NCBI GenBank assembly: GCA_039621445.1
Contig: CP154954.1
Coordinates: 3,601,715 to 3,665,714, forward strand
Source: Euglena gracilis
Lineage: Eukaryota
Direction: 5' to 3'
DNA: 64,000 nt
Part shown: piece by piece, positions 1 to 58,011 of the stretch
How the letters are laid out: every line of letters begins with the position of its first letter
Position numbering within the stretch: the stretch's first letter is position 1
Program-made: the position numbers and the translations under genes
The notes under the pieces: model-generated
Databases searched by the model: none
What the model was told of the DNA's origin: nothing
The model's input: the letters and a program-made list of their open reading frames with translations, nothing else

Positions 1-241
1 GCGCGACCGTGATTTTCTTGATAATTTGAGTGGATTGATTTTCTTCTTCTTTTCTCAATTGGTGAGGTATTTGAAGTTCCTGTCTTCTGGGTGACGAAGG
101 GCAAATTAGGAATCAGCCAACTCCGGCGAAAAAAGGCACTAGGCCGGACCTCCTAACCAAAGCGCACCAGAACAATCCACACAGCACCGCCGGCGAGCAA
201 GGCATGGCCTCACAAGGGCAAAGTGCGGAGCCCGAGGTGTC
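1..241 (-). mobile_element. Left end (left ITR 113-241 plus leader) of a second DIRS1-like element that runs off the window
   Basis: 1-241 is a near-identical direct repeat of 5463-5698, the left end of the main element. It begins GACACCTCGGG on the minus strand. Confidence 0.8.
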
Positions 242-16892: not shown

Positions 16893-18913
16893 TCTGTTGG
16901 ATGGCCCCAGAAGAGGTGCGGTCGGAAGAACACCACAGTCATGTTGGACGGCCCCAGATGAAGTTCAGTCGGATGAACACCAGACACTTGTTGGAAAGCC
17001 CCAGTGGAAGTTTGGTTTGATGAACACCGCAGACTTGTTGGACGGCCCCAGTTGAAGTTCGGCTGGATGAACACCACAGACTTGTTGGACGGCCCCAGAA
17101 GGAGTTAGGTTTGATGAACACCACAGACTTGTTGGACGGCCCCAGAAGGAGTTCGGTTTGATGAACACCACAGACTTGTTGGACGGCCCCAGATGAAGTT
17201 CGTTTGGATGAACACCACAGACTTGTTGGATGGCCCCAGATGACGGTTGGATGAACACCACAGACTTGTTGGACGGCCCCAGATGAAGTTCGGTTGGATG
17301 AACACCACAGACTTGTTGGACGGCCCCAGATGAAGTTCGGTTGGATGAACACCACAGACTTGTTGGACGGCCCCAGATGAAGTTCGGTCGGATGAACACC
17401 ACAGACTTGATGGACAGCCCCAGATGAAGTTCGGTTGGATGAACACCACAGACGTGTTTGACGGCCCTAGATGAAGGTCGGTTGGATGAACACCACAGAC
17501 TTGTTGGACGGCCCCAGTTGAAGTTCGGTTGGATGAACACCACAGACTTGTTGGACGGCCCCAGATGAAGTTCGGTTGGATGAACACCACAGACTGGTTG
17601 GACGGCCCCAGATGAAGTTTCGTCGGATGAACACCACAGACTGGTTGGACGGCCCCCAGTTGAAGTTCGGTCGGATGAACACCACAGACTTGATGGACAG
17701 CCCCAGATGAAGTTCGGTTGGATGAACACCATAGACTTGTTGGACGGCCCCCAGTTGAAGTTCGGTCGGATGAACACCACAGACTTGTTGGACGGCCCCA
17801 GAAGAAGTTCGGTTGGATGAACACCACAGACTTGTTGGACGGCCCCAGAAGAAGTACGGTCGGATGAACACCACAGACTTGTTCGACGGCCCCAGTTGAA
17901 GTTTCGTCGGATGAACACCGCAGACTTTTTGGACGGTCCCAATTGAACTTCGGTCGGATGAACACCACAGACTTGTTGGACGGCCCCAGAAGAAGTTCGG
18001 TCCGATGAACACCGCAGACTTGTTGGACGGCCCCAGAAGAAGTTCGGTTGGATGAACACCACAGACTTGTTGGACAGCCCCAGATGAAGTTCGGTCGGAT
18101 GAACACCACAGACTTGTTGGACGGCCCCAGTTGAAGTTCGGTCGGATGAACACCACAGACTTGTTGGACGGCCCCAGAAGAAGTTCGGTTGGATGAACAC
18201 CACAGACTTGTTGGACGGCCCCAGAAGAAGTACGGTCGGATGAACACCACAGACTTGTTCGACGGTCCCAATTGAACTTCGGTCGGATGAACACCACAGA
18301 CTTGTTGGACGGCCCCAGAAGAAGTTCGGTTGGATGAACACCGCAGACTTGTTGGACAGCCCCAGATGAAGGTCGGTTGGATGAACACCACAGACTTGTT
18401 GGACAGCCCCAGAAGAAGTTCGGTTGGATGAACACCGCAGACTTGTTGGACAGCCCCAGATGAAGGTCGGTTGGATGAACACCACAGACTTGTTGGACAG
18501 CCCCAGATGAAGTTCGGTCGGATGAACACCAGACACTGGTTGGACGGCCCCAGATGAAGTTCGGTCGGATGAACACCACAGACTTGTTGGAAAGCCCCAG
18601 ATGAAGTTCGGTTGGATGAACACCACAGACGTGTTGGATGGCCCCAGAAGGAGTTCGGTTTGATGAACACCACAGACTTGTTGGACGGCCCCAGATGAAG
18701 TTCGGTCGGATGAACACCACAGACGTGTTGGACGGCCCCAGAAGAAGATCGGTTGGATGAGCACCACAGTCTTGTTGGACGGCCCCAATTGAACTTCGGT
18801 TGGATGAACACCACAGACTTGTTGGACGGCCCCAGAAGAAATTCGTTTGGATGAACACCACAGACTTTTTGGATGGCCCCAGAAGGAGTTCGGTTTGATG
18901 AACACCACAGACT
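16893..18913. repeat. 47-bp tandem repeat array (~43 units)
   Basis: Unit GGATGAACACCACAGACTTGTTGGACGGCCCCAGATGAAGTTCGGTT. Period 47, e.g. 17281 to 17328. Confidence 0.97.
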
Positions 18914-21389: not shown

Positions 21390-30174
<8,785 letters not shown>

Positions 30175-30620
30175 TTTTTAATACCTGGACTATCTAAGGC
30201 CAGGGGGGATATGCAACGAGGCACCTCAAAATATGCAATGCAAAAAAATGAAAAAAAAATGCAAATGATGCAACTTATGTCCCCCCTGGATGCAGCAAAC
30301 CTTTTGTGCATGATGGAGGTGCGCTCCAGCAAGCGTTGTGCCCTTTCTTGAGAGGGGCTACCCAGGTTCTTGGGCAAAGTTGGAGATTGTGAATCATTCA
30401 AGGATCAAAACCTTTGACTCGATCTGGACAAAAGATCGAGAACGTGGATGGGCAGGATCCAGCCCAACGTTTGAAAGCAAAGGAAGAAGAAGAAGAGGAA
30501 TAACAATTGTTGCCTCCTGAATCGAGTGGAACAGCGTACTGCGTGGAACAGGTACACGACAGCTCACTGGGTACGGGTGCCTGGGTCGGGCTCTCCCTCG
30601 CCGCGCGGCGCGGCGCTCGC

Positions 30621-30764
30621 TCACTTTTCCGTGAAGTGGAACACGCCGTCCCACGGCCGGCCGGCCTCCGTGTGCTCCAGCTGGGCGGCCAAGGCGGCCC
30701 ACGCCTTGTCCGGCGGGTCCAGCAGCGGATTGGCCGCCAGCAGCTGCCGCGCCCGTTGGTGGTC
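30621..30764 (-). CDS. Adenylate cyclase terminal exon (copy 1)
   Basis: DHQRARQLLAANPLLDPPDKAWAALAAQLEHTEAGRPWDGVFHFTEK*. Confidence 0.85.
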   Translation of the reverse strand, partial: DHQRARQLLAANPLLDPPDKAWAALAAQLEHTEAGRPWDGVFHFTEK

Positions 30765-33700
30765 CCCAGCAGCCCGCTCTGCAGCCTAAACTTTGGGGAG
30801 GGGGACAATCATCCAAACCTTGTGTGCGTGGACCAGACAATTTGCGGAGTTTGGGCCTGCCAAAATGAATGCTTCGCCTTGTTCAGAGAGCGGGTGCCTG
30901 GCAGCATTTTCCACCGCACAGCAAACGCCATTGTAAGGGTAATCTCATGTGCCTCGGATGCTTTAATTGGATGCCAGGTGCCATCTTAAGAACTTTAAAC
31001 TTTTTTTGTGCAGAAAAAAATCAAAAAACGTCTGTGCAGGAAAAAAGGCGAAGTAAAAAGGGTCTTGCAAAAGAAACAGGGTTCAAGGAGCACAGAAAGA
31101 GAGCTCTTGGGAGGATCGTCTTGGAGTCCGGTGGAAGAAAACAAAGCATAGAAAACTCCAGAACATCTGTCACCAAAACCTTGGATAATTACCCTTTGAA
31201 TTGTGTTGAACTGAATTACCTTTGAATTGAACTGAGTTGTCCCCAAGGAAAAAAACGGCAGCACCTAACCACCGCCCCCCCCCCCCCCCAGGGAGGGCCC
31301 AATGCTCAAAAGGGTCCACACCTGTGTGTTTAAGAAATAGCTCGGACCCGAATTTGCCTATGTTTTTGTGCTCCCCACGGGGGATGTGGTCAGGGTTGGG
31401 CCAAAGTTAGGAGGTTAGGCCAGAATCGGGCCAAAAGGCCTCAAGGCCTGAACCCTAACCCTAAACCAATTCCCAACGCTAACCCCAACCCTCTCCCCAA
31501 GACCAAACCCCACACTGCGAGCAGGCCTTCCATGCTGCACATTTTTCAAGGACATCGTGATCACTTTTGGAACGACAATTGCAACCCTAAGCCTATTCCT
31601 AAAAACAACAGAACAGGAGACAACTTCTGGGGTGCCGTTAGATAAAAAGTTGACATCCTCCGACACAAACAATTGTCCCATGTAGGAAGAGTTTCCCATG
31701 GAGGAGGGGGTATCGGTGGGGAAGAGGTTTATACGAGGGGTGGTGATAAATGTTTGGGGGGGGGTTTAGCCACCCCACTTATCCTCGGTGCCTGCATGTG
31801 TGCAGTATTCACAGTGTATGCATGTATTTGGGTAACAACCATGCCCGGTGGCCTCCCCGCACCACCGGGATGGCGCCGGTCCGTCCGGAGCCCCCCTGTC
31901 CTGTTTAATGTAACCGGCTGTGTGCATATATGTATGCCCCTCGGTTGGAGGACAGAGATGGGAAATGGGGGGGGGGACGGGAAGGCCTGGTGAGGTGGGG
32001 TGGACCCCCCTACCCGCTGGGAGGTGGGGGTCCAACCCACCACCCACCACTCACAGGGTTGCAGGGATTCCTGTGCAGGGATTCCTGATTCCTGGGAGGG
32101 GTACTGCTAAGCTGTCCTCTTAGGACCCTTCCCCCTCCCTTGAACCCACTGACCTGCCTATGGAATGGGGAATGTCAAATGGAATTTTTCAACAAATTTT
32201 GTTTTAAAGAAGGGATTTGGAGGGTGTTTTGGGGTCATTCTGGGTGGGGCAGGGCTGTACGGGAAGGCATGGTGGGGGTCGATCGACCCCCACCCAGAAG
32301 GTGGGGGGTCACACACGATGGCACCACGCAGGGAAAAAACCACACAAATTTTGACCTAAAAATTGGTGTCCCCAGAAATACGGGAAAGGGTGTGGGAGTG
32401 GTCAGACTCCCCTACCCACCAGGTTGGAAGGGGGATGACCCCCCCCACCCACCCTCCCACTCATGGTTTGGGGATTCTCGCCCTGGGATGAGGCGGCACA
32501 GCAGGCTGTCTGCCCGCCACTATTGAGGCGTATGCCTGCTCATACCGCGCTGACGACTGCAGCAGCGTCAGGCGGTCCACGAGGGTCCAGTGGTAGGTCG
32601 CCTGGCTGGGGGCAGGCCGGGGATGAGAGAGGTCTGAGGACTGTGTGGGAAGGCCTGGGGGGTTGCCCCCCCCCCCCCCACCCGGGAGGGGTGGGGTCGA
32701 ATACCCCCACAAACGGTGTCGCCGAGCAAGGAAAAATTCCTTTGTTGCCAAAGAAACTTTCACCTAAAAAGTGCCCTGGGAGGGGGGGGGGAAACGGGAA
32801 GGAGGTGGGGGGTTTGGGGGACCCCCATGACAGGTATGGGGGGGCACCACCACCGCCAATTGGTTTCAGGGAGTTGTCTAGGGGAACGTCTTCAGAAATC
32901 ATATGACCCTCCACATGAGTTGTTCTGTCAGGATAAAACTCAGTGAATGGACGTTTGAAAGAAAATTTCCAAACTCCTTGTTTCATGCATTATATATGTC
33001 ACTCATAATATACAACACATATGCACTTAAATGTGGAAGTCTGAGTGAGAAAGGTTTTGCAATGTCGTGTGCTGTGGTCAAAATAGATCCAGATTCCCAC
33101 CAAGGAACTTGGCAGCACGTATCGTCCTCACCTTGCACCCGAGGAAGATCTCTGCAAATCTGCACCGTTGGGAAGCGGTCACCCAGCCATTTGGCTGTGG
33201 GGACAAGGCGACGTTTGAGCGGGCCACAGACCAGACTTGCAATTATCCCGAGCTATCGCACGTCCTGGATTGGCCGCAGCGTATGAACAGAAGCAAAGCA
33301 AGACATTGCCTTCTCCCGGGCCATGGACAGGACCGCAGGACTCTGACCCCTCCTCCATGCTGACGCTGCCGACTTGAATGTAGGAATGCTCTCCGGGCCA
33401 CAGCAGGGAGGCCCACCCACACAACCCAGGGGGAAGACCATGGGAATCGCCAGAGATGGCAACGACCGAGTGCGGTGTGCAGCTGGACAGTGGCGGGAAT
33501 TGCTTTCCGTCAGTCCATGTCGGGAAGTGTCGTGTCGCACCACAAACCACCCCAAGGCCCAACCGCTTTGCGAAGGCTCAGAGATTTCTCCCCCTGCCCA
33601 CATGGCTGGGAACTGTGGTTGCATGGACAAAGCCCCCGCATCGGGCGGCTGGAAAAATAAAAGTCGTCGATGAGGGAGGAGGGGTCCAAGGCTGGAGAAA

Positions 33701-36700
33701 GGCTGTTGGCAGGGGGGGGGGGGATGCACCAGAGGGAAAAAAAATGCGAAAAAATGCACAAAAAATGCACAAAAAAATGCACAAAAATGCACAAAAATGC
33801 AAAAAAAATGTGCAAAAATGCACAAAAAAATGCACAAAAATGCATAAAAAATGCACAAAAATGCGCAAAAATGCAAACACATCCCCCCTGCAGTTGGCTG
33901 GAGAAAGGCTGCTGTCTTGCTGGACGACCCCCCCCCGGGGGGATGGGGTCCACTTCGGCTTCAGGGACGCCCTGGTTTGTTCAGGGGTACCACATCATCC
34001 CTTGATTTTGATTGGGGGGGTCAGTAAGACGGAGGTTGGGTGGAAGGGGGGGAGGGGCATCGCTGGCCGGCACCGGCAGGACGTCCAACGCGTCGTCCAC
34101 CTCCAGGACGGCGCCATCGCGGGGGAGCAGCCCCGGGGGGCCAGCCCCCTTCGGGGTGCACATCTCGGCGCACTCCGCCGCACACAGCACCTCGTAGACC
34201 GGCAGCACCTCGACGCTAGGGTGGGGGGAACAACCCACCCCAATGCCCAACCCTCCTGGGGTCCGGTCGAAAATGCCCCCTCCCAGCCTTGAATCGATCT
34301 TTTGAAGAAGAAAAAAAGTATGCAGTCCACCCAAATGGCAGGGAGTGTAAACCAGGTTTTGAATAGTGCTGAGCTCTTAATAAGCGCGCCCCACCCCTTC
34401 ACTGACCCCCCCATATGAACCGGCCCACTCCATGGAGCTCTTTTGACTGAAATGCAAGGGTTTTGTGCCCGAAACGGGAGGCCAGGGGGTCAAAAAACGC
34501 CCATTTTTTGGCTCAAAAAACACGTTTTCTGGGTCCAGGAGGCCCAAAAACATGGTTTTGGGCAAAAAAAAATCGATTTTTTCGACTTTTTTGGCCCGTT
34601 TTTGACCCAAAATCAATGGGTTTCGGGCCAAAAACGGGGCACTGGCGGGTCGAAAAACGCTCATTTTCGGCTCAAACACATTTTTTCCGGGTCCAGGAGG
34701 CCAAAAAACTCGGTTTCGGGCAAAAAAATTTGGATTTTTTCGACTTTTTTGGCCCGTTTTTGACCCAAATTCAATGGGTTTCGGCCAAAAACGGGGCGCT
34801 GGCGGGGCAAAAAACGCTCATTTTCGGCTCAAAGACAGCTTTTTGAGGTCCGGGAGGCTAAAAAACATTTCAAAAAGGCAAAGAAAAATTCGATTTTGTT
34901 CGTTTTTTTCCCGACTTTTTTGGCGGAAAACGGAAATCTGACAGTGGAAAAAGTGTGCAAAATGTCCCAAATTGGCCGAAAAACGGCCGTATCTTGGGCT
35001 AGGCGGGGAGTTGCGGGGAAATCAAAATACCAGTAGATGGGGCGTTCCAAGGGCTTCAAATTAGGTCTCCGGACATTTCCTTTGATTTGGCTTCATTTTG
35101 GAGATATTTTGAAAATTGACATTTTTTGGCCGAAATGGCAGAGTCCAAAGGGGGGGGCTTAAAAAGGGGGGCGGGCTGATTCTACCCAGTTTGGACCCCT
35201 TCGCGCGTGAATAACTCAGGCCTGGCGGGGAGTTGGGGGTCAAACCCAGGTGATTCGGAAGCTAGAAATCCAGTCGCTTGCAACTGGAAAAAAAAAATCC
35301 GGGAACGGGGCCGGGATCATGGTGATAATCCGTCGGTTCTCCTGGTGGCCCCAACCGGGGGGGGGGGGTTCGCCAGGGGTAAGCTTCGCTCTGGCCCATA
35401 AAAGGATAAGAGCTCAGCGACCCCCCCAAAATAAGACCCTCCCCCAAAATTAAGACCCCCACCATAAAACAAGACCCCCTGCCAATTTTCAGCAAAAATC
35501 CAAAACTAGACCCCCCCCAAATAGTAAGACCCCCTTGGGGTTTTGGCGGGAAAAAACCAAAAAATAAACCCAAAATGCTCCCCAAAATGGGTGATTTCTG
35601 TCATTTTTTTTTGATTTTTGTCCGTGTTGTGTGTCAAAATTGGCATTTTTTTTTACACTCGATGCCGAAAATCACCCTTTTTAGACCTGTTTTAGGACCC
35701 TCTCGCGGGAAAAAAAATTTTGGATGAATTTCTCAGCAAAAAGTGGACCCCCAAGCCAAAGAATTACCCCCCACCCCGCGCGCTTTTCAGCGACGGACCC
35801 AAAAAGTAGACCCGGGGGGGGGGGGGTTGAGGGATGTGCCTGACCAATGACACGACACATCAGTGTTGTGTTGGAGTCCTGGCTGGGTCCCCCTGGGTGG
35901 TTTTACATTTTTTCTGTTCTCTTTGCCATTTCATCACAGTTTCTTTGCCATGGGCATCACATCGGCCCATACCTGCATGATTCCACAGCCCTTGATGTTC
36001 CGGGGGGGGGGGGGGCATGGGCAGCCAGAAACAGCCACTTTTGACCCACGCACAAGCGCACACCCCAGGGGGGTTCAATACAATTCCTCTGTCATGCAGT
36101 TCTGGTGCCTCCGCAGGACAGCAGAAGAGCAGGTCCGCCAGTGCGTTCCGGAAGCCCCTGCACCCTGGGCGGCCTTGCCGGGCACCGTCACCTTCGCCAG
36201 CCGCCGGAAGTGGAAGTCCCCCCGGCAGGCCTCGAACGTGGCGTGGGACACGCAGAGGAACGTCCCGAACTTCTTGTTGAGCGGCTCCAGCCGCGCCGAC
36301 AGGTTGGGCCGGCAGCGCCCCTCCCGCCCCCCATCCATCACAAGAGAAGCTTCTTGGTAGGAACATGGATTCACTCAGTGGCCCCCTGGGAGGGGGTGGG
36401 CACCTGTTGCAGGGCCTCCCCCTCCCCCCCTGCAGGGGGGGGGGGGGCACCCACCCACTCATCCAGCCCAAAACCATGCCAAATCTGCCAAAACCCCTCG
36501 AAATATGTATTGCCAACCCAGCCCCGGCCCAGTTGGGCTGACTCAAAGTGCATCCCGCCCCCAGGGAGTGGGGCGGGGTCCAGCAGCTCAACCCCAACCC
36601 ACCCACTCTCAAACCCCCTCAGAGGTGGGGTCACACGGGCTAAATGAAGAAACGGTGGGAATAAATAAAATACATTTTTGAACACCCACAAAAAAAAACA

Positions 36701-39700
36701 CTCAAAGAAACCCTGTGAGTGAGCTGAATTGCAGATCATGGTTTGCATGCAATACCATGGTCAACACCCCCGTGACGACTTGAAGAACCTCAACCCCCCT
36801 GGTGAATCATTTGGAGGCACTCAAAATGGGGCAGTGTTCAGAAGGCATGGTGCGCAGCACCTGGGTGTGGGACCTGGGGTGTGGGGAGAATGGTCGGGAG
36901 GACTCCAACTGACCATGGCAGTCAAACAAAATTCCTTCGGTGCCAATGGTGCCTCAAAATCGGCATTTGCGAGATGGGAAGGGGTGAAGGAAGGGGTGAA
37001 GGGGTGATGCCGCCCCCCCGACCAGGATGAGGAGGTCGACACACCCTCCCACCACCCATGAGGTTTCAGGGATCCCAACCCTGGGGCAGGGGGGAGTATG
37101 GCCAAATTTTTCAAAAATAAGACAAACCCCCCAAACCCCCAATTCTGCTGAAACAGGGGTGAAACATTAAAAACAATAGCATGCAAAACAGTCGTTCGGG
37201 GAGTGTGCTTCTGCAGATCTCAGGGGGAAGGGCAAACTAGACCAACGACTGCAACGGCCCAATGTCCACATGGGCAGCATGCCAATCGGGAGGGGGCTGG
37301 CCCACCCCGTCCCCCAGGCAGGTGTAGCTGACACGGTAGCTGCAGCCAGCCCCCAGCGACCGAGCCCACCTCCCCGGGACAACGGAGAATGGGGCGAAGA
37401 AGACGAGAAGCACGCACCAGAATATCGGACAGAAATACAACTTCTTTGCCTGGGAACGTTGCTCAGGAAAATGGGGTTCCTGAGAGCAAGCGGAGCAGGA
37501 TACTACTACAGTGGTTGAATTGACTGGAATGCCAGGGGCCTAGACAATGGGGCTTTTTGTTTTTTGCTTGCCTGTGATTGTCAGATGACAACTCTTTTCG
37601 ATAACTCCTCCCATTCCACTTGCCAACCTGCCTGGCCAGAGGTCTTCTGAAACAAGAGGGGAGTATTTGGGGGGTTGGGGTGGGGCGGTCAATCACAATT
37701 CCAATATCATTTCTGTCAATTTGGTGCCATTTTTGCACGCTTTTGGGTATTTTTTTCACATTTCTTGATGTTTGTGCCTTATCTCTAGGTTTTGCACACA
37801 AAGTGCCACATTTTTGTGCATTTTTTGCACATTTTCTTCGACGTCGGCAAAGTCCCCCCGCCAGTCAGCAGCAAAAGTCAGGTTGAAAAAATTTCGAAAA
37901 TCTCAAGAAAATGCAAAGTATTGCAAAAATGGTCAAAAATTCGAAAAATTGGGAAAATCACAAAAAAAAATGGCAAAAAAAGCAAAAAAAAATTGTGTCG
38001 AAAAAAATGCAAAAAGTGCCCATTTGTGGAAAATTTTGGGGGGAAATGCGCAAAAAAAAAGCCCCAAAAATGCAGGAAAAAATGCGAAATGCACCCCCTG
38101 CAGCCAGCCAGGTCAGCCAGCAGCATGACCTGGGCTTCTGCAATGAGGTGCGAATCAGATACCCCCACAAAAAGCTTTCCAACTTCAGAATTTGGCATAT
38201 TTGATGAGGAGCTCTGGAAAAATTCTTCTAAATGTCCTTCAAAGCTTCGAAATTCACTGTGGATAGCGTCATTCTAGCTGCGCCTTGTGCATTATCTGTG
38301 GTCATAAACATAACTTTTGTTCTGAACATTCCAGGGCATTCCTCATACTCCGGATTCTCCTTTTATGGTTCAAGGAAAAAAATTGAACCCCCCCCCCGGG
38401 TGTCTCACAACCATGAAGAAAAGAGGGTGGATCTGGAGCCAGCAAAAATCAAAGCTTGAGAAAAACCAATGTTTGAAGGAAAAATTTCCGTCTGTGGTGC
38501 CTTCTCGATGTTCAAGGAAAACCTGTTATATGGGAGAAAACCAGAAACAACCTGGGGAAGGGTCAGCAACCACCAAAATGAACTCTGACCTGGATTTGCA
38601 GACTCCTGTTGAGGGAAGCATGTTATGAGATCCGGGAAGGGGCAAAAAAGGTATCCACAGACACGTGGACTCGGCACTGGCCGAAGTTGCCCACAAGACA
38701 TTGGCCGGTGTGGATGCCCGCACGGAACTTCAGCACTGGCAGCCCCAGGCCTCTCCTTAGTGTGGGTCAAGGCCCCCGATTCGCAAATATTTTTGCAAAT
38801 TTGGAAAAATTTGCATTTTTTGCCGACATGCGCCAAGGAGAGGTCTGGGCAGCCCCCGGGACCGCCATAACTGGTGGAGGTCCATGACGCAAGCGGCAGG
38901 ACCTGATCTTGGAAGAGGACCAAGAGCTTCCACATGTGTTTGTTTTTTGGGACCCTCTGCCAACAATGCCATCTCCGTTGGGGGGATGGTTTTGGCTGCC
39001 ACACATCCAATTTCGGATGGTTTCGGTTCATATCTTACCAAGAACCATTGAAATTGACTATGCATTGAATATCCATTCAACCCAAAATGGAAGCAGCCAC
39101 CAAATTTAGGCCACCCCTTGGGCAGATCGGCTGAAACCCAAATTCATTCAACGGGTGCTTAAATCTGGGGGAGTTTCCCTTCAGAATCAGGGGATGGGAT
39201 GGGCAGTGGCGGTGTTGAGCAAAAAGGTACAAAAAGTTCGAGAATTTTGAACCCATCATTTTTTGGTCCTGTCCCTGATGATGACTTCCGTCGAGAATTT
39301 GCGATCGGAATTCTGGTGCAAACCAAACTGGATGGTGAGCTTAACTCTGGGTGCAAACTTACTTCTTTTGTGTTCGCTCACCAACAGAGAAATGATTTCC
39401 GCCCAGATGGTGCAGAAAAGAAATTTCAATGGGATCACAGACCAAAAAAATAACATGAATCTTGCCATGTATGGAGCGTGGGGTCTAACTGAAGGATGCA
39501 TGCCAACCCCCCCCCCATCAGACGTTGTCATAAAAGCCGAGAGAACAGCTTGACAGAGGACCTCTAGTGGCAAAATCTGTCCAACATAACCCGTCAGCCG
39601 GTGACAGTCCCCAAAACGAGACCTTTTCCGGGGGGGGGGGGGGCTTGGTAATGTCTGAGCCCTGGGCGTCCTGCATCGCCAGCGACGCGGCCACAGCGTC

Positions 39701-40045
39701 CCTCTCGTGTCCGGGCAGCCTCTCCGGCGCGTTCCACATCGCCATGGCGCAGCCCCACGGGTGGGAATCGACAGAAACAGGTGGTGGACTGGGTGGTTTA
39801 TGAGGAGAAGAATCTGGTACAAATACATAAGTATGTACAGTATTATTATTTATATTTATGTAAAGCGAGGACACGTGCACAACCTTGTTCAAACAGTCGT
39901 GAGGATATGCATACACACATATACACACATACATACATTCATTCATACATAGATACATACATACATACATACATACATACATACATACATACATACATAC
40001 ATACATACATACATACATACATACATACATACATACATACATACA

Positions 40046-40076
<31 letters not shown>

Positions 40077-42763
40077 TCACATGCATGCATGCATGGCGAC
40101 CCCATATTAGTTGGGCCCGACTGGTGGGGGGTCCCACCAGTATGAGGTGAGGGTTTTTTTACCCTCCCGCGTCATACAAGTGGGACCGGCCCCTTGATTT
40201 TGGCCGTTTTCTCCACCAACTTCGATCTTCCGACGGTGGAAATTTGATAATTTTGGATGTGAGGAAGCGAGTTCCAGATTATCCCATAAAAAGCAATTGG
40301 GGTTGGGGTTTGGGAGTGGTTAGGGTTAGGGTTTTAGGCTACAGTTAGGCCGAAATCCTAAAAAAAATATAGGCCTTGCATTATGCCCAAACTAACCTAT
40401 AATTAGGCCGATAATTAGCCTAACCCTCATTATCCCCAGGGCATCCGTGGCCAACCAAGTGTGCACTTTGATACCCCCAAGGGGGAGGGAATCAAAAGGT
40501 GCACCTGCCAATACATATGGACACACACATGCACATGTGTGTGTCCCTACATCCCTATGCATATGTGCATATTATATATATATATATATACATATGCGGT
40601 GTGTGTTCCTAAATACATGCACATATCCATTACATTAGATTGTTTATTAAAAAAAGGAAATCTGGACGATAATGTTCAAACACTGTCAGGAAGTGCCTTT
40701 TCCCCACTTGCCTCGGAGTCACACCACCAAACGAGTAGTCAAAAGCGGAGCAGTTGGATCGAAGGGGGGGGGTTGACCGAACCGCCGACCGTGGGGCTTT
40801 CAATGCAGTCACCGATGAACTTGTCGATGGTGCCATTTCGTTCCACAATATTGGGGTCCGAGACCCATACAGAGGACGTTCCAGCAGGCTCCTTTTAACA
40901 AGCCCCGGGGAGATTGTGCCTCGTGCTAGAAGGTTTTCAGAGGTTCTTCAGGATCTGGAGGGGGAGGTCGGCACCCACCCACCCACCCAGAGGGCCCCCA
41001 CGGGGGGGGGGGGGAGAGCTCGGAGGTCAAATTTGGTCCAAAAAGTTTTCAAAAAGCTTTCAGACCGAAATTAGAGGAGAACCGCTAGAGGAGGATACCC
41101 CCTCGACTAAACCCCAGCAGGAGGGGGGCGCCCCCCCCCAGGTCAACAAACTTAAAACATCGCTGTGTGGGGTGCTAGCTCATAGCAGGGACACAACCAG
41201 GGGGGGAATTTGAGTCCCAGCTTGGGCCATTTTTGGGCTCCTAGAACCTTCCGCATCGAAGGGGGGGGGGGTTGCTCTCTCACGACCCACATCCCCCTGG
41301 GGTTGAGACCTTCCCTGGGAACAAGACCGTTCCTTATTTTAGAGGGTATGTTCCCACCCATCAGAAGCCGACTTGTTTCAAAATGGCTTTTCGTTTCGCC
41401 GTTGGCAAAACGGCGAAAAAGCCGTTTAGCCGTTGGCAAAACAGCAAAAAAGCCGTTTCGCCATTGAGAAAATGGCGAAAAAGCCGTTTTGCCAGCCAAA
41501 TGTGAGAAAAATGGCAAAAAAGCCGAAGAGCCGAAATGAAACACATATGGGTGGGAACATACCCCACTTTCAAGATTCTTCATTGAGGAAGGACCCCGAA
41601 TAAAGGACCCACATTTTCCCAGTAGACACATCATTTCCCAGTTCCTGAAAACCTTCGGTGATTTGAGCCATATTTTCCTTCGCTTAGTGTGTGTTTGAAA
41701 GTTTCCAAAACTTCCTGTCGTTGGGGGGGGGGGGGTTCTGGGGTTTGTCTGCAGGAGACTCGGTGCGCTGCACATGGCCTCGAAGTACTCCGTGCACACG
41801 GCGACCAGCGCGGCGGGGGTCTCATTCTCACAGATGGTGGAGAAGCCCTCAATGTCCGCAAACATGATGGTCAGCGTTTCAGTGGCAGGCAACTGATTGC
41901 CCCACCACCATCTCCATGGTGGTGGGGCTTTAAACTCACGTGTTTGGTTGCGACCTCAGGAAAACCATCCCATGTCCCCTCCGGCAGGCTGCAACCACAG
42001 GTGGAACTGATTCCAAACAGCTCAACAGTGACGCCAAAGGCATCTGCAACCCACAGCCAGGGGGCCGATGAAAAAAAAAAACGGGAAGTTCAGCAGATCA
42101 GGAGTTCAGCGGGCTCACTTTGGTGCAAATTTATGATTAAACGGATTACCACTGACGGCCCATATCTTCGGTTTCCGGATGAGAGACGAAACCTTTAGGA
42201 TTGCAGATTAGACCTCAGGAACAATGAACAGCGGCCTGCTTGGGGTGCATCTCATCGTTGGCTTTCATTTGGCCAGCAATCAGAATCAGCCGACGGTCAA
42301 AAGAGGTGACTCGACAAAGAAGCCGCACATTCGATGTACAGGTGAAGAGTCACCGGTTTCTGTGGTTGGTTTGAAATGCCCCAGTGCCTTGGCATTGCAA
42401 TCGGAGACGCCCAGCTGTGATGCCTGGGTTTTTCTCCTTGTGCTCAAGCAGCCAAGCAAATGATTTTTCAAGGTTTCCTTTTTGGTTGCAGGTGTTGGCC
42501 CCATGTCATTTGGGGTGTGTCATTTGACGTGACGTGTCACATCCTGCTGGGACAAATCTGGCATCTCAGGTGGATTTGGCTGTTTTTCCCGCTGGTCCCT
42601 TTTGTCACTCCAGAAAGGGATTCCAGAGAGAAACCTCATTTCCCAGATGCCATTCAGGATCCATCAGGGTTTGTGCAAGACGCAATGCCCCAATTTGGCA
42701 CATCACGGGCCGGGGCTGCCCAGCACCTTCACCACCGCCTGGGGCACGAACTTCCCAAACGCC
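30621..42763 (-). CDS. Class III adenylate cyclase, copy 1 (multi-exon, 5' part cut by the gap)
   Basis: Exons 42722-42763, 42242-42281, 41767-41880, 40802-40852, 39668-39745, 38851-38891, 38683-38740, 37303-37347, 36171-36305, ~34069-34211, (possible exon(s) ~33270-33530), 32512-32607, 30621-30764. Joins down to 34211 are in frame; the link from ~34069 to 32607 is unresolved. Motifs FADIEGFS, GTIDKFIGDCIMAMWNAP, FRAGIHTG, SYTCLGDGVNLSARLE, WDGVFHFTEK*. Confidence 0.9.
32512..32607 (-). CDS. Adenylate cyclase exon (copy 1)
   Basis: SQATYHWTLVDRLTLLQSSARYEQAYASIVAG. Confidence 0.75.
34069..34211 (-). CDS. Adenylate cyclase exon (copy 1)
   Basis: EVLPVYEVLCAAEC...; the 3' boundary is approximate. 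Confidence 0.7.
36171..36305 (-). CDS. Adenylate cyclase exon (copy 1)
   Basis: NLSARLEPLNKKFGTFLCVSHATFEACRGDFHFRRLAKVTVPGKA. Confidence 0.9.
37303..37347 (-). CDS. Adenylate cyclase exon (copy 1)
   Basis: GCSYRVSYTCLGDGV. Confidence 0.88.
38683..38891 (-). CDS. Adenylate cyclase, two exons 38851-38891 and 38683-38740 (copy 1)
   Basis: CVMDLHQLWRSRGL|PVLKFRAGIHTGQCLVGNF, separated by a 110-bp intron. Confidence 0.88.
39668..39745 (-). CDS. Adenylate cyclase exon (copy 1)
   Basis: MAMWNAPERLPGHERDAVAASLAMQD. Confidence 0.88.
39929..40076. repeat. (TACA)n microsatellite
   Basis: Seen directly. The counterpart at ~57826-58010 is longer. Confidence 0.95.
40802..40852 (-). CDS. Adenylate cyclase exon (copy 1)
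   Basis: NIVERNGTIDKFIGDCI. Confidence 0.9.
41344..41564. mobile_element. MITE with perfect 18-bp TIR GGGTATGTTCCCACCCAT
   Basis: Inverted termini with internal GCCGTT/AAAACGGC repeats. Second copy near 59264-59483. Confidence 0.65.
41767..41880 (-). CDS. Adenylate cyclase exon (copy 1)
   Basis: ETLTIMFADIEGFSTICENETPAALVAVCTEYFEAMCS. Confidence 0.92.
42242..42281 (-). CDS. Adenylate cyclase exon (copy 1)
   Basis: (L)IAGQMKANDEMHP; phases match both neighbours. Confidence 0.8.
42722..42763 (-). CDS. Adenylate cyclase exon (copy 1)
   Basis: (Q)AFGKFVPQAVVKV(L), the pre-catalytic helix. Confidence 0.85.
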
Positions 42764-43338
42764 CACAGCAGCCTTCTTTTCCACAACCCCCTGGAGGAGG
42801 GGGTCTTCGGCTGTTATGCACGCGGTCCAAGCTGAGTCTGACCAACCCCCCCCCCCCCCCCGAGGGATTGGTCCGGACAGTTCATTAAGTATGGGGTTCA
42901 TTAAGCATTAAGCATTAGACGTTCATTAAGCATGGGGTTCGCAACCTCCCCCCATTTCATGATTCAATGACACCAAATGATCGTCTCCGGCTGGGGGGGG
43001 GGGTGCTAAAACAGCCAACGTTTGTCTCCAACCAGGGGGTGGAGGGGGTTGTTAGACAATAGGGGAACCCCATGTTGGCAAAAAGTTGGCCACAAATAGG
43101 GAATCAAGACCATTTTGGCTGTTTTTAGCCCCTTTTTTTTTTTGCACAATTGGCATCCTTTGACCACTTCTGGCCATTTTTGGCCACTGTCGGCCATTTT
43201 TTTGGCCATTTCGACTATTATTGGTCATTTTTTGGCCAAATTTGAGCAACTTTCGGCTGTTTGTCGCAACCTCACTTTACCAGCCCCCTCCCCATTGACC
43301 AGGTTCCAACAACCCCCGACCAGGGAGTGGTTGCACGA

Positions 43339-43752
43339 CTAAACCCCCCCCCCAAAAAATAAGACCCCCCCCCAAAAATAAGACCCCCCCCAAAAATAAG
43401 CCCCCCCCCCCCCTGACGGCGCGAAGCGCCGGGGACGGTGAAAATTTTCCCTGAGAAATTGCCAAAAACCCAAATTTCACACACAAAAATGATGAAATTT
43501 CAAAAAATTTCAGATTCTTGAAGTGCAAAAAACATGCTAAATGTCCACTTACACAAATTTACACATGGCGCGAAGCGCCGAAGGAAAATTTTTAGTGTTT
43601 TTGGGAACCTGAAAAATGATGTTTTTTTCGTCCCGGGTCGGTCAAGAAAAAATCCAAAAATAAGACCCCCCCCAAAAATAAGACCCCCCCCTGGAGGTTT
43701 CCAGCAACGGACCCAAAAATAAGACCCGGGTCTTATTTTGGGGGGGGGTTAG
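43339..43752. mobile_element. MITE with CCCCAAAAATAAGAC subterminal repeats
   Basis: Inverted termini ctaaaccccc.../...gggggttag. Second copy at ~61222-61633 and related repeats at 35421-35535. Confidence 0.65.
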
Positions 43753-44799
43753 GTGCCAAAAAAAAACCCAATATTCAAAACCACCTGCAACCTTCATCCT
43801 CCGACCAGGAGGTGTCGATGTATAGGGGATTTATCCCCATTGGGACCTTTCCCTGACATGATCTTTTGCTGGATAGACATATGATTGGGTGTCATCTGCC
43901 ACGTTCCCCTGAAATGTATTATTCAACCCTGTGACATCTTCCATCAGCAGGAAGGCAGGAATGAGATTTCGATGTCATACAGCCTGACAAAAAGCCTGAC
44001 GGGGTGGTCAGCAGACAGGGGGTACACCAATTTGAATCATTTTGGGAGCCATTGCGGGGGCATTGGCCATTTTTTGGGGGGGGTCATTTTGGCATTTCAG
44101 CCAGTTTATGGTTTTTCCAACAGGCTGCAAAAAAAAAGCTTCTCTGAAACTTGCAAATACAAAAAAAAGCGAAATTAAACCACAATTCCTCCATTACTTA
44201 GGGACAAACATCACAGGTCGCATCTGACCAGGGGGGGATTTCTTGGACAAGCCCGGTCATTGGACGAGGAAATAATCATCCATTTGCTGTGAAAGGAGAC
44301 AATCTACACAGTCTGGACGCCCCTTGTTCGTTGGACAATTGGCAACGGTCGCCCAGCCCCCCAGTATGGACAGGCGGAGTGGGGGGGGGGGTATTTTGAC
44401 CCCCCAGGAGGCAGGGTTTTTTGGTGCTATAAGGGGGTTCATTTCATTTTTAGGAAGGGAGGGTGAGTAACAACTTGCCGTGGAGGCCTCCCAGTGGACT
44501 TTCCAACAGAAAAAGTCAGTTGACCCAACGTGACATCCAAGGGAGAGGGACAAAATGTCCTTGAAATGGCGGGATCTGATCAGCAACAATTGCAGATGGA
44601 AAATTTTTTGTGGGGAATCCTCAAAATGCGGGGAAAATCCTGGACGCCCCCTTAAAACGGCCAGGAAATTTCTGGATGAAGAAAATCTCACAAAGCCATT
44701 CTTCAGGGAAATTCCACACCAAACCCAAAAATTGGTTTCTCCAAATCCAAAATTCAAAAAGTTTGGATTTGAACGTTAAAAAATCACATGCTGAATGAT

Positions 44800-44812
44800 N
44801 NNNNNNNNNNNN
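44800..44812. other. Assembly gap (13 N)
   Basis: N run at the junction of the two duplicated segments. Confidence 1.
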
Positions 44813-46442
44813 CCTCGAAATTGCAGGATTTTTTGGCAAGAGAGTGCCAGCAGGAAAAATTCGACCATTTCGGGTGGTCCCGCAATCCCCCCAGGGTCGG
44901 TTGGATGGCCCCTTGGCAGGTGGGGTGGTGGTCAGGACCCTGCCCCTCCTCCCCACGGTCAAGGGGGGGGGGGACACCCCCCACCTAAAGCCGGGGCCCC
45001 CCCCCCCCTTGATCGAACCCTGTACCCCCCCCCCACAGGCCCCATGGGGCGGCAGGACAGAGTTGCGCCAGAAATTGTTTCTTCCGGACTTGCACCGCCC
45101 TCGGCACCAGAGTGCCCGAGCTGAATGCCCAGGCAATCTTTTCCGTGTTCCCGATCCCCCCTCCCCGGGATCGAGGCGCCTTGGAGTGTCTCCAGGCAGG
45201 CAGCCCCCTCCGGGGTGGGGGGGGAATCAGCCGGTTGGGTGTGCAGCACGGTGTCGGGAGGGTCAGGGAGGGGACAGGGTGCCGGGCAGCGGGAGGGAAG
45301 GCGGTCCTCCCCTCGGCAACGCCCGCTGGGTAAGCCGCTCGTGGCCTTCCCAGGCTTGTGCCACGCCCCACCCCCACCCCGGACCCAGGGGTGGCCACCA
45401 CCCCCCCGCCCCCCCCCCCAACCGCACTGACGACACCGTCCCCATGTTGAGTTTGACGGTGCTCGGGCTAATGGCAAAAGAAGGCGGGCAGGTTCAGGGG
45501 TTTTTTTTTAAGACCGGGGGTCAGCCCCCCCCCCCAACCCACCCCCTCCCCCCCCCCCCCGGGGTCCTGGGGGACCCACCCACTTTTCCCTGAAAATGAC
45601 CAAAAATCGCGAATAATGCTAAAATTTCACCATTTCAAAAAAAATTTGGCGCCAAAAGCGCCGAAAAGTATATCCCCCCTGGGGGGACCCCCTGGGGGGG
45701 GGGGGGGGCGCGGGCGGACCCACCCAACCGACCCCCCCAGGGGTCCAAGACAAAAAAAACCTTTAGGAAGGTTGTTGGTATATGTGAAAGAACCTCAAAT
45801 GCCACCATTGGCCCCGTGTCCGCCGCAGGTTCGTGATGGGTTGGGGGTCTGCCTGAAAAAATGTGGCGCGTGGCGCCGGAAGCTGCTGACAGGGGAGAAG
45901 GAGGTTCGACCCTTCACTACGTAATGGTTACAGTCAACTTTTTTTAGGCCCTGAGGAGGTGCCCGCCCCCCCCCCCACTGCCCACCCTTTGGGGTGGGGT
46001 GGGGGGCTTGAGAGACCTTATATTTCTTGTGCGCCCGGGGCTGTGGGGGGCCAACAAGGCTGCACGGGAATGCCCAGTGGGGGGTCGGACCCCCCACCTG
46101 GGGGGAAGGTCGACCCCACACCAAGGCACCACGCAAAAAAAAAATCGAAGGCTGCAAAAGAATCGTTTTTGAACGAAAATCAGCGGAAATACGAGAAGGC
46201 TTGGAGGGGGGGGGTTCGCCCTCCATGTGGCTTTGGGGATTCCTACACAGCCCTGGGGGTGAAAACTCCATTTTTGGTGAACGCAGGGCTCACCGGACAC
46301 AAGCACAGGTTTAACTCGGTCTGTCCGCCGGTGGATTGCAGCCAACAAAAGCCTGCCCTGCAAATAACCCAAGGCTATTTTACATGGCAAACACTGATCC
46401 CAGGCATCCGTCATGCTTGACAGAACAGAAACGGTGATGGCA

Positions 46443-46498
<56 letters not shown>

Positions 46499-46520
46499 CA
46501 CCAACAACAACAACAACGAG

Positions 46521-46552
<32 letters not shown>

Positions 46553-55500: not shown

Positions 55501-57980
55501 AACCTGCCTGGCCAGAGGTCTTCTGAAGCAAGAGGGGAGTATTTGGGGGGTTGGGGTGGGGCGGTCAATCACAATTCCAATATCATTTCTGTCAATTTGG
55601 TGCCATTTTTGCACGCTTTTGGGTATTTTTCACATTTCTTGATGTTTGTGCCTTTTCTCTAGGTTTTGCACACAAAGTGCCACATTTTTGTGCATTCTTT
55701 TTGCACATTTTCTTCGACGTCGGCAAGGTCCCCCCCCCCCCGCCAGTCGGCAGCAAAAGTCAGGTTCAAAAAAATTCGAAAATCTCAAGAAAATGAAAAA
55801 AAATGCAAAAAAGGTCAAAGAATCGAAAAAATGGGGAAAACAGGAAAAAAAAATAAAAAAAAAAAGCAAAAAAAAATTGTGTCGAAAAAAATAAAAAAAA
55901 GTGCCCATTTGTGGAAAATTTGGGGGGAAATGCGCAAAAAAAGCCCCAAAAAATGCAGGAAAAAATGCGAAATGCACCCCCCTGCAGCCAGCAACATGAC
56001 CTGGGCTTCTGCAATGAGGTGCGAATCAGATGCCCCCGCAAAAACCTTCCCAACTTCAGAATTTGGCATATTTGATGAGGAGCTCTGGAAAAATTCTTCT
56101 AAATGTCCTTCAAAGCTTCGAAATTCACTGTGGATAGCGTCATTCTAGCTGCGCCTTGTGCATTATCTGTGGTCATAAACATAACTTTTGTTCTGAACAT
56201 TCCAGGGCGTTCCTCATTCTCCGGATTCTCTTTTTGTGTTTCAAGGGAAAAAATTGAACCCCCCCCCGGGTGTTTTCGCAACCATGAAGAAAAGAGGGTG
56301 GATTTGGAGCCAGAAAAAATCAAAACTTGAGAAAAACCAATGTTTGAAGGAAAAATTTCCGTCTGTGGTGCCTTCTCAATGTTCAAGGAAAACCTGTTAT
56401 GTGGGAGAAAACCAGAAACAACCTGGAAGGGTCAGCAACCACCAAAATGAATTCTGACCTGGATTTGCAGACTCCTGTTGAGGGAAGCATGTTATGAGAT
56501 CCGGGAAGGGGCAAAAAAAGGTATCCACAGATACGTGGACTCGGCACTGGCCGAAGTTGCCCACGAGACATTGGCCGGTGTGGATGCCCGCGCGGAACTT
56601 CAGCACTGGCAGTCCCAGGCCTCTCCTTAGTGCGGGTCAAGGCCCCCAATTTGCAAATATTTTTGGAAAAAATTGCATTTTTTGCCGACATGCGCGAAGG
56701 AGAGGTCTGGGCAGCCCCCGGGACCGCCATAACTGGTGGAGGTCCACGACGCAAGCGGCAGGACCTGATCTTAGAAGAGGACCAAGAGCTTCCACATGTG
56801 TGTGTGTTTCTTTTTTGGGACCCTCTGCCAATAATGCCATCTCCGTTGGGGGGATGGTTTTGGCTGCCACACATCCAATTTCGGATTTGGACGGTGTCGG
56901 TTCATATCTTGCCAAGAACCATTGAAATTGACTATCCATTGACTATCCATTCAACCCAAAATGGAAGCAGCCACCAGATTTAGGCCACCCCTTGGGCAGA
57001 TCGGCTGAAACCCAAATTTATTCAACGGGTGCTTAAATCTGGGGGAGTTTCCCTTCAGAATCAGGGGATGGGCTGGGCAGTGGCGGTGTTGAGAAAAAAG
57101 GTACGAAAAGTTCGAGAATTTCGAACCCATAATTTTTTGGTCCTATCCCTGATGATGACTTCCATCGAGAATTTGGGATCGGAATTCTGGTGCAAACCAA
57201 ACTGGATGGTGAGCTTAACTCTGGGTGCAAACTTACTTCTTTTGTGTTCGCTCACCAACAGAGAAATGATTTCCGCCCAGATGGTGCAGAAAAGAAATTT
57301 CAATGGGATCACAGACCAAAAAAATAACATGAATCTTGCCATGTATGGAGCGTGGGGTCTAACTGAAGGATGCATGCCAACCCCCCCCCATCAGACGTTG
57401 TCATAAAAGCCGAGAGAACAGCTTGACAGGAGGACCTCTAGTGGCAACATCTGTCCAACATAACCCGTCAGCCGGTGACAGTCCCCAAAACGAGACCTTT
57501 TCCGGGGGGGGGGGGGGGCTTGGTTATGTCTGAGCCCTGGGCGTCCTGCATCGCCAGCGACGCGGCCACAGCGTCCCTCTCGTGTCCGGGCAGCCTCTCC
57601 GGCGCGTTCCACATCGCCATGGCGCAGCCCCACGGGTGGGAATCGACAGAAACAGGTGGTGGACTGGGTGGTTTATGAGGAGAAGAATCTGGTACAAATA
57701 CATAAGTATGTACAGTATTATTATTTATATTTATGTAAAGCGAGGACACGTGCACAACCTTGTTCAAACAGTCGTGAGGATATGCATACACACATATACA
57801 CACATGCATACATTCATTCATACATAGATACATACATACATACATACATACATACATACATACATACATACATACATACATACATGCATACATACATACA
57901 TACATACATACATACATACATACATACATACATACATACATACATACATACATACATACATACATACATACATACATACA

Positions 57981-58011
<31 letters not shown>

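What the first reader, a model, noticed from the sequence alone, without database searches (positions are those of the whole stretch)
38738..38855. A nonconventional intron with the exact structure of a hAT-type insertion
Seen: the 110-bp intron 38741-38850 consists of a 102-bp core (38746-38847) with 17-bp inverted ends (CAGACCTCTCCTTGGCG / CACTAAGGAGAGGCCTG, 14/17 match). It is flanked by a perfect 8-bp direct repeat GGGCTGCC at 38848-38855 and 38738-38745 (7/8 in copy 2). Most introns of this gene have 3 nt before the stem and 5 nt after it. 3+5=8, so splicing removes the core plus exactly one TSD and restores the pre-insertion ORF. The HAMP intron keeps a 5/8 relic (CTGCAGGG/CTGTGGGC); the others keep only 2-4/8. 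The polymorphic element at 25763-27448 also starts CAG, ends CTG and has an 8-bp TSD. Established: hAT elements make 8-bp TSDs, and euglenid nonconventional introns pair CAG(+4..6) with CTG(-8..-6). Inference: hAT/MITE insertions may act as intron generators, and the splice code may be a fossil of hAT end plus TSD geometry. This rests on one perfect case.
Basis: partly seen in the sequence, partly recalled or inferred. Interest (0 to 1): 0.85.

Follow-up and report, generated by a model that had tools for sequence, protein, structure and literature searches.

The report
Transposon-shaped nonconventional intron in Euglena
A 110-base intron in a Euglena adenylate cyclase gene looks exactly like a small jumping-DNA element plus one copy of its 8-base target duplication, a clean example of a published idea about where Euglena's odd introns come from.

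Summary
On the minus strand, a 102-bp core (38746-38847) has 17-bp inverted ends (14/17). It is flanked by a perfect 8-bp direct repeat, GGGCTGCC. Removing the core plus 8 nt reproduces a Euglena gracilis transcriptome protein, P0001, exactly. The intron meets every part of the experimentally defined nonconventional splicing code (PMC12501133).

A second element in the window, 25763-27448, also has CAG..CTG ends and an 8-bp duplication. The other gene copy holds its empty site, so such transposition was recently active here.

A recently gained Euglena agilis gapC intron, published in PMC4770533 Table S3, shows the same layout of 8-nt repeats directly against the stem.

- The "relics" in the other introns are at chance level: 21/64 in register against 11-28/64 for shifted controls.
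- No second copy of the core was found.
- The hAT assignment is unproven, because no transposase was found.

The MITE origin of these introns has been in print since 2014. I did not find the link "3+5 = one 8-bp duplication" in print. Verdict: a new member of a known kind, of moderate interest.

The parts
38741..38850 (-). 110-nt nonconventional intron in the register of the published code (GCC-CAG ... CTG-GGGCT | G). Ten cut positions give the same mRNA.
   Evidence: equivalent cuts, repeat of 9 nt. (spliced translation equals P0001).
38746..38847 (-). 102-bp core, the presumed inserted element. GC is 47%. The inner 68 nt are 60% A+T.
38831..38847 (-). 5' inverted end, CAGACCTCTCCTTGGCG (gene orientation).
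38746..38762 (-). 3' inverted end, CACTAAGGAGAGGCCTG (gene orientation). 14/17 complementary to the 5' end.
38848..38855 (-). Upstream copy of the 8-bp duplication, GGGCTGCC. Five nt are exonic and three are the N3 spacer.
38738..38745 (-). Downstream copy of the 8-bp duplication, GGGCTGCC. Five nt are the N5 spacer and three are exonic.
38851..38891 (-). Upstream exon, coding CVMDLHQLWRSRGL(P). It lies in the class III cyclase catalytic domain.
38683..38740 (-). Downstream exon, coding (P)VLKFRAGIHTGQCLVGNFG.
56608..56717 (-). The same intron in the second copy or haplotype. The core, 56616-56709, carries an 8-bp internal deletion. The repeat is 7/8.
25763..27448 (.). 1,686-bp non-coding element. 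TIRs are CAGGGTTCGATATAAGG / CAGGGTTTGACATAAGG (15/17). It is flanked by CCCCCCAC at 25755-25762 and 27449-27456 and carries a 47-bp x 23 satellite.
44977..44984 (.). Empty site of the 1,686-bp element in copy 2. It holds a single CCCCCCAC.

Best explanation
A 102-bp non-autonomous DNA transposon (MITE-like) inserted into the coding sequence of a class III adenylate cyclase gene of Euglena gracilis and duplicated 8 bp of target, GGGCTGCC. It belongs to a superfamily that makes 8-bp target duplications and has CAG...CTG termini, most likely hAT-like.

Its inverted ends pair in the pre-mRNA. Euglena's nonconventional, non-GT-AG splicing machinery measures from that helix. It cuts 3 nt upstream of CAG and 5 nt downstream of CTG, so it removes the element plus exactly 8 nt, which equals one copy of the duplication. 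The original reading frame is restored without a scar.

Shown: the anatomy, the exact splice product, the fit to the published code, and that elements of the same geometry transposed recently at this locus.

Inferred: that this core arrived by transposition, which superfamily it belongs to, and the exact cut positions, which the repeat makes unresolvable.
For: - Anatomy. Fold: -54.3 kcal/mol, z = -4.07.
- Splice product: in-silico splicing of seven consecutive introns gives 158/160 identity to P0001 (EG_transcript_6004). Both mismatches lie upstream of the first exon. There is no gap against paralog P0005 over 280 aa.
- No conventional alternative: none of the equivalent cuts has GT/GC-AG ends.
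- Code: N3-CAG / CTG-N5 followed by a purine matches 5'-N3CDG-/-CH'GN5-6|R. In that paper the spacer lengths were tested by insertions and deletions (PMC12501133, abstract and passages).
- Rarity: the repeat is 9 nt here against 0-3 nt in the other eight introns.
- Same geometry with an empty site: element 25763-27448.
- Scan control: of 212 CAG..CTG inverted-repeat pairs in the window, 3 have 7/8 or better non-low-complexity flanks in register. There are 0 at each of six shifted registers.
- Independent published case: gapC intron 4 of E. agilis ACOI 323 is present in one strain only (PMC4770533, passages). Its Table S3 row reads exon GTCCC|aac-cat...atg-gtccc|AAC, which is the 8-nt GTCCCAAC on both sides, directly abutting the stem, split 3+5 (read by eye).
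Against: - No second, dispersed copy of the core is in the 64-kb window. The one 15-nt TIR-like match, at 11300-11314, has no partner.
- The bin holding the intron shows ordinary DNA word depth, 137 against 102 and 316 in the neighbouring bins. The tool warns that this is not a copy number. At most it argues against a young high-copy family at 95% identity or more.
- No transposase was found in the window.
- The TIRs are only 14/17.
- The other eight introns carry no in-register repeat signal, so this locus alone says nothing about the origin of old introns.
- The inverted ends are also a requirement for splicing. Their presence is therefore partly a survivorship filter and not fully independent evidence of a transposon.
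Confidence: 0.72

Rival explanations
1. This is not a transposon. A staggered double-strand break was repaired with filler DNA, and fill-in of 8-9-nt overhangs made the direct repeat. This is the explanation Milanowski et al. 2016 offered for the gapC intron. The insertion survived only because it happened to be palindromic enough to be spliced.
For: The authors of PMC4770533 propose this for an 8-nt repeat (abstract and passages). No dispersed relatives of the core were found here. The inverted ends are demanded by splicing, so they are selected for whatever the origin (PMC12501133).
Against: A non-genic element 13 kb away has the same CAG..CTG ends, the same 8-bp duplication and a clean empty site. 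The repeat abuts the inverted ends exactly, both here and in gapC intron 4. Random filler DNA with a 17-bp terminal palindrome is unlikely.
Confidence: 0.12
2. It is a transposon insertion, but not of the hAT superfamily. It could be Merlin, which is documented in E. gracilis with 8-bp duplications, or another or undescribed 8-bp-duplicating superfamily.
For: PMC8101967 (passages) reports two Merlin families in E. gracilis, both with 8-bp TSDs. No hAT transposase is linked to this element. As I recall them, the hAT target consensus nTnnnnAn and the fifth base of the terminal consensus YARNG are not matched by this element.
Against: Per the same paper, Merlin TIRs start with GG and are 24 bp or longer. 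Here the ends start CAG and are 17 bp. hAT TIRs of 10-25 bp with 8-bp TSDs fit (PMC3942097, passage). The neighbouring element starts CAGGG, as I recall Ac does.
Confidence: 0.25
3. The geometry is a filter and not a fossil. The nonconventional splicing machinery, with its 3+5 spacing, is older than these transposons. Elements whose duplication is 8 bp and whose ends are CAG..CTG are simply the only insertions tolerated in exons.
For: Old introns of the gene show no duplication relic. Two of nine introns use 3+6 or 3+7. The code tolerates N6. Synthetic 50-bp introns that obey the code splice (PMC12501133), so no transposon-specific sequence is needed.
Against: Nothing here excludes it. It predicts the same structures as the fossil reading for young introns.
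Confidence: 0.4
4. The repeat is a chance coincidence at the borders of an ordinary old nonconventional intron.
For: Short direct repeats flank 84.4% of E. agilis introns (PMC12501133, passage).
Against: The probability is 1.5e-5 per intron for 8/8 in one register. The other introns have repeats of 0-3 nt. The same structure occurs in a proven recent gain.
Confidence: 0.02

Closest known systems
Euglenid nonconventional introns (Milanowski et al. 2014, 2016; Nomura et al. 2025)
   Same: There are no GT-AG borders. CAG sits at +4..+6 and pairs with CTG at -8..-6. The spacers are 3 nt and 5 nt, the downstream exon starts with a purine, and an extended terminal helix forms. All of this was tested here and met.
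   Different: Nothing differs in kind. This one is unusually short (110 nt), and its flanking 8-nt repeat is still perfect.
gapC intron 4 of Euglena agilis ACOI 323 (PMC4770533, Table S3)
   Same: It is a recently gained nonconventional intron with a perfect 8-nt direct repeat directly abutting the terminal stem, split 3+5 by the annotated junctions.
   Different: It is in another species and another gene. Its termini are CAT..ATG and not CAG..CTG. Its authors read the repeat as a footprint of break repair, not as a target-site duplication.
Introner elements: transposon-generated spliceosomal introns of Micromonas, Aureococcus and others (Huff et al. 2016, seen only as a reference entry; review PMC11282704, passages)
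   Same: A non-autonomous DNA transposon lands in an exon, and splicing removes the element plus one copy of the target duplication, which restores the ORF.
   Different: Introners use the spliceosome and GT-AG sites, partly supplied by the duplication. Here the excision follows the non-spliceosomal Euglena code. Multi-copy family status is not shown for this core.
hAT-superfamily MITEs (for example Ds of maize; general features from PMC3942097)
   Same: 8-bp target duplication, short TIRs (10-25 bp), termini beginning CAG, no coding capacity.
   Different: No hAT transposase is linked to this element, no family of copies is shown, and the target consensus as I recall it is not matched.
Merlin transposons of Euglena gracilis (PMC8101967)
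   Same: 8-bp target duplications, and documented in this species.
   Different: Merlin TIRs begin GG and are 24 bp or longer. This element begins CAG and its TIRs are 17 bp.

Membership tests
Euglenid nonconventional intron (code of PMC12501133) | No GT/GC-AG borders at any compatible cut | tested here: met
   None of the 11 protein-equivalent cuts ends in AG.
Euglenid nonconventional intron (code of PMC12501133) | 5' N3 spacer followed by CDG | tested here: met
   GCC then CAG.
Euglenid nonconventional intron (code of PMC12501133) | CH'G followed by an N5-6 spacer, with the middle bases complementary | tested here: met
   CTG then GGGCT; the middle bases are A and T.
Euglenid nonconventional intron (code of PMC12501133) | Purine as the first base of the downstream exon | tested here: met
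   G. The same holds for 8 of the gene's 9 introns.
Euglenid nonconventional intron (code of PMC12501133) | Base pairing beyond CAG/CTG | tested here: met
   3 bp, one mismatch, then 11 bp. MFE -54.3 kcal/mol, z = -4.07.
Euglenid nonconventional intron (code of PMC12501133) | Absent from the mature message | tested here: met
   The spliced translation equals transcriptome protein P0001. Direct RNA reads were too few to list a joint.
MITE | Short, non-coding, with terminal inverted repeats and a target-site duplication | tested here: met
   102 bp, TIR 14/17, duplication 8/8.
MITE | A family of dispersed copies with different flanks | tested here: inconclusive
   Only the allelic or duplicated copy is in the window. 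No genome is held. The metagenome pattern scan gave 0 hits.
hAT superfamily | 8-bp target-site duplication | tested here: met
   The feature itself is from PMC3942097.
hAT superfamily | TIRs of 10-25 bp | tested here: met
   17 bp (PMC3942097).
hAT superfamily | Terminal consensus YARNG and target consensus nTnnnnAn (both recalled, not from a call) | tested here: inconclusive
   CAGAC and CAGGC match 4 of 5 terminal positions. GGGCTGCC matches neither T2 nor A7. The neighbouring element, CAGGG, matches 5 of 5.
hAT superfamily | Mobilised by a hAT transposase with matching ends | not testable with these tools
   No transposase domain was found in 100 of the 159 ORFs of 120 aa or more in the window. 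The whole genome is not held.
Merlin superfamily | TIRs that begin GG and are 24 bp or longer (PMC8101967) | tested here: not met
   The ends begin CAG and the TIR is 17 bp (paper passages).
Introner elements | Many near-identical copies serving as introns in unrelated genes | not testable with these tools
   This needs the whole genome and its intron annotation.
Introner elements | Spliceosomal GT-AG excision | tested here: not met

The most novel reading that the evidence does not exclude
Euglena's second splicing system is, in origin, an RNA-level excision system for one class of DNA transposon. Its fixed spacers (3 nt before CAG, 5 nt after CTG) sum to 8 because the transposase of CAG..CTG (hAT-like) elements duplicates 8 bp. 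Any such element landing in an exon is then erased from the message without a scar. This would have licensed the spread of hundreds of thousands of nonconventional introns. On this reading the spacer rule of the splicing code is a molecular fossil of a transposase's staggered cut.
Probability: 0.35. Interest if true: 0.8.

Novelty: new member of a known kind. Interest (0 to 1): 0.55.

Why it matters
The origin and removal mechanism of euglenid nonconventional introns are open questions. These introns make up about 72% of introns in E. agilis (PMC12501133). A MITE origin has been proposed since 2014 on the strength of inverted ends alone.

Three things turn that idea into a sharp, countable prediction: this locus, the empty-site element 13 kb away, and the published gapC case. 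The prediction is that young nonconventional introns should carry an in-register repeat of exactly 8 nt, split 3+5 by the splice sites.

As far as I could see, the published sliding analysis was shown only for -5 to +5 (SI text), so such a peak would have been missed. The test needs only existing genome annotations.

Tried and rejected
- **RNA-seq junction check.** Two RNA runs were laid on 30000-39950. Depth over the exons was about 1, and no RNA joint at 38741-38850 appears among the 15 listed joints (195 others not shown). No verdict. No RNA holder was listed in the run search.
- **First lay request.** I then asked for the part beside it, as the message advised.
- **Own-genome search.** No genome is held.
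- **Dispersed copies.** Window BLAST and a TIR pattern search found only copy 2 and a partnerless 15-mer at 11300-11314. A TIR-pair pattern scan of metagenome contigs gave 0 hits. That result is uninformative, since Euglena DNA is probably not in that collection. A look-up in earlier notes by sequence gave nothing.
- **Relics in the other introns.** Rejected.
- **Inverted-repeat pair 38186-39579 with 7/8 flanks.** Rejected as chance. It spans two exons, and about 0.08 such hits are expected by my arithmetic.
- **Inverted-repeat pair 44896-45732 with a 9-nt repeat.** Its left arm is missing in copy 1, and I did not pursue it.
- **104-nt indel at about 31815-31918.** It has a 13-nt imperfect repeat, so it is not of the 8-bp type.
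- **Hand count of Tables S1-S3 of PMC4770533.** I compared the older E. agilis intron positions by eye. Some rows, such as hsp90 position 5, looked enriched. I ran no shifted control, because these sequences were not put into a script, so I do not use them as evidence.
- **Searches for the 8-bp/hAT idea in print.** I found the MITE hypothesis, 'TSD-like' repeats and one 8-nt repeat, but no statement that 3+5 equals the duplication length. Figures, and any paper outside the library, were not seen.
Full report
**What is there.** The window is Euglena gracilis nuclear DNA. Exon translations match EG_transcript proteins of the E. gracilis transcriptome at 100%. On the minus strand at 38738-38855 the sequence reads GGGCTGCC | CAGACCTCTCCTTGGCG ... 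CACTAAGGAGAGGCCTG | GGGCTGCC. The inverted ends are 17 bp and 14/17 complementary. As RNA they form 3 bp, one mismatch, then 11 bp. The 124-nt stretch folds at -54.3 kcal/mol, z = -4.07 against shuffles. The direct repeat is 8/8. It extends to 9 nt only because the base before the upstream copy equals the terminal G of CTG.

**It is an intron, and its removal is exact.** The gene is a class III adenylate/guanylate cyclase. Pfam PF00211 covers residues 503-639 of P0001, and the intron interrupts codons 596-597 inside that domain.
- I spliced seven consecutive introns of copy 1 in silico. The translation matches P0001 (EG_transcript_6004) at 158 of 160 residues, and both mismatches lie before the first exon begins.
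- P0001 carries Met at CVMDL, as copy 1 does, whereas copy 2 encodes Val.
- P0001 aligns with paralog P0005 at 86% identity over 280 residues with no gap across the site. Excision therefore leaves no scar.
- This rests on a transcriptome-derived protein. My attempt to see the joint in raw RNA reads failed for lack of depth.

**Fit to the known splicing code.** Nomura et al. 2025 (PMC12501133; abstract and passages) defined the code genetically as 5'-N3CDG-/-CH'GN5-6|R. The 5' spacer is strictly 3 nt and the 3' spacer is 5 nt, with 6 tolerated. Here the intron reads GCC-CAG...CTG-GGGCT|G, so every element is met. None of the compatible cuts has GT/GC-AG ends.

**The other introns of the gene.** I could define nine introns from P0001, seven in copy 1 and two only in copy 2. 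All nine are nonconventional.
- Seven have the helix at 3 nt and 5 nt. One is 3+6 and one is 3+7.
- Their nucleotide-level repeats are 2, 3, 0, 1, 0, 0, 3 and 0 nt, against 9 for the target.
- The in-register identity of the 8-nt flanks in those eight introns sums to 21/64. Shifted registers give 11 to 28 of 64, and flanks paired across different introns average 2.75 of 8.
- There is therefore no relic signal.

**A second element with proof of insertion.** The element at 25763-27448 has these features:
- It is 1,686 bp long.
- Its TIRs are CAGGGTTCGATATAAGG and CAGGGTTTGACATAAGG (15/17).
- It carries 23 copies of a 47-bp satellite.
- It is flanked by CCCCCCAC on both sides.

The other copy of the region holds the uninterrupted site with a single CCCCCCAC at 44977-44984. 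Elements with CAG..CTG ends and 8-bp duplications were therefore moving after the two copies diverged. The copies are 97.5% identical in aligned columns.

In a window-wide scan, 212 CAG..CTG inverted-repeat pairs were found. Three had 7/8 or better non-low-complexity flanks in register and none did at six shifted registers. The three are the target, its copy-2 twin, and one probable chance hit that spans exons. The 1,686-bp element is excluded by the low-complexity filter.

**What I could not show.**
- No dispersed relative of the 102-bp core was found. The window holds none, no genome is held, and a metagenome pattern scan gave nothing.
- DNA word depth over the intron bin is ordinary. At most this argues against a young high-copy family.
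- No transposase domain is in the window. I scanned 100 of 159 ORFs of 120 aa or more. Those left out were copy-2 counterparts, alternative frames of the 47-bp satellite arrays and a few repeat-rich overlapping frames of copy 1.

**What is already known.**
- The MITE origin of nonconventional introns was proposed by Milanowski et al. 2014 (PMC3935182; abstract and discussion passages).
- It is repeated in a 2024 review, which also mentions 'TSD-like' repeats at the junctions (PMC11282704; passages), and by Nomura et al..
- Milanowski et al. 2016 (PMC4770533; passages) reported that gapC intron 4, present in only one E. agilis strain, has eight-nucleotide direct repeats, and suggested break repair as the source.
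- In their Table S3 that row reads GTCCC|aac cat...atg gtccc|AAC. The 8-nt GTCCCAAC lies on both sides, directly against the stem, split 3+5. This is the same layout as here, with CAT..ATG ends. It is an independent, demonstrably recent case.
- I found no paper stating that the 3-nt and 5-nt spacers sum to the duplication length, and none naming hAT (searches). The SI text of Nomura et al. describes sliding positions only from -5 to +5. I could not see the figures.

**Which transposon?** hAT elements have 10-25-bp TIRs and 8-bp duplications (PMC3942097, passage), and this element fits both. Merlin elements occur in E. gracilis and also make 8-bp duplications. However, their TIRs begin GG and are 24 bp or longer (PMC8101967, passages), which is not met here. 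From memory, the hAT terminal consensus YARNG is matched 4/5 by this element and 5/5 by the 1,686-bp one, and the target consensus nTnnnnAn is not matched. hAT-like is the better guess, but it remains unproven without a transposase.

**Mechanism and rivals.** The most likely sequence of events is transposon insertion into the exon, pairing of the TIRs in the pre-mRNA, and excision by the nonconventional machinery at fixed distances from the helix. Because 3+5 = 8, one duplication copy goes with the element.
- Break repair with filler DNA would also give a repeat. It does not explain the neighbouring bona fide insertion of the same geometry, nor the repeat abutting the palindrome exactly.
- Whether the spacer rule descends from the duplication length (fossil), or merely selects which insertions survive in exons (filter), cannot be decided here. 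Both readings predict what is seen.

**Earlier notes of this scan.** They report the same 3+5 = 8 reading in several other windows of this genome, and a high-copy CAGGGTTG-ended hAT-like family. These are unchecked AI notes, and I use them only as leads. The CAGGGTTCG-ended element here fits the latter note.

**Verdict.** This is a particularly clean member of a known, hypothesised kind: a MITE-derived nonconventional intron. The general claim about the splice code remains an attractive, testable conjecture.

Noticed in passing
window 44800-44812, with 25604-44799 and 44813-62681: A 13-N scaffold gap. The two 'copies' end and begin flush with the gap edges. They are 97.5% identical in aligned columns, with 12 indels of 20 bp or more. 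Copy 1 of the cyclase gene is cut off at the gap. This looks like two diverged haplotype contigs scaffolded in tandem (a false duplication) and not a real tandem duplication.
   Followed up: partly
window 16895-18913 and 26003-27092: Arrays of the same 47-bp satellite. The second array lies inside the 1,686-bp transposon, so the transposon carries or seeds satellite DNA. 13257-13460 also matches 25782-25994 at 87%.
   Followed up: no
window 27479-27495 and 45006-45022: A solo TIR-like end, CAGGGTTCGATC..., of the same family. It lies about 22-30 bp from the insertion site of the 1,686-bp element and is present in both copies. It may be an older truncated element or reflect nested-insertion preference.
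   Followed up: no
window about 49263-49905 (copy 2 only): An insertion of about 640 bp that is absent from copy 1. It has roughly 27-nt inverted ends, TACCTCCCCCCCC..TTGTCCAACGACC, and an A/T-G-rich 'TTTTGGCCA' interior. I saw no clear 8-bp duplication. It is a different element type.
   Followed up: partly
window about 31815-31918 (copy 1 only): A 104-nt indel flanked by a 13-nt imperfect direct repeat (11/13). It is more like a microhomology deletion in copy 2 than a transposon.
   Followed up: partly
window 34316-35643: Intronic repeats with summed DNA word depth of 1e5 to 1.7e6 in two DNA runs, and many DNA-level joints. They are very high-copy, nested repeats inside an intron of the cyclase gene.
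   Followed up: no
window 37303-37347: RNA reads that end here continue into a sequence coding HTGVCLVGNF, which is a paralog's version. They do not continue into this gene's HTGQCLVGNF (loose ends). Paralogs of this large cyclase family cross-map at 95% likeness.
   Followed up: no
window 11300-11314: A 15-nt match (2 mismatches) to the intron's TIR, followed by GGC as at the intron. No partner arm was found within 1 kb. It is either chance or a solo end.
   Followed up: partly
window 39850-40100: A (TGTA/TGCA)-type microsatellite inside intron I5. Its length differs by 60 bp between the two copies.
   Followed up: no
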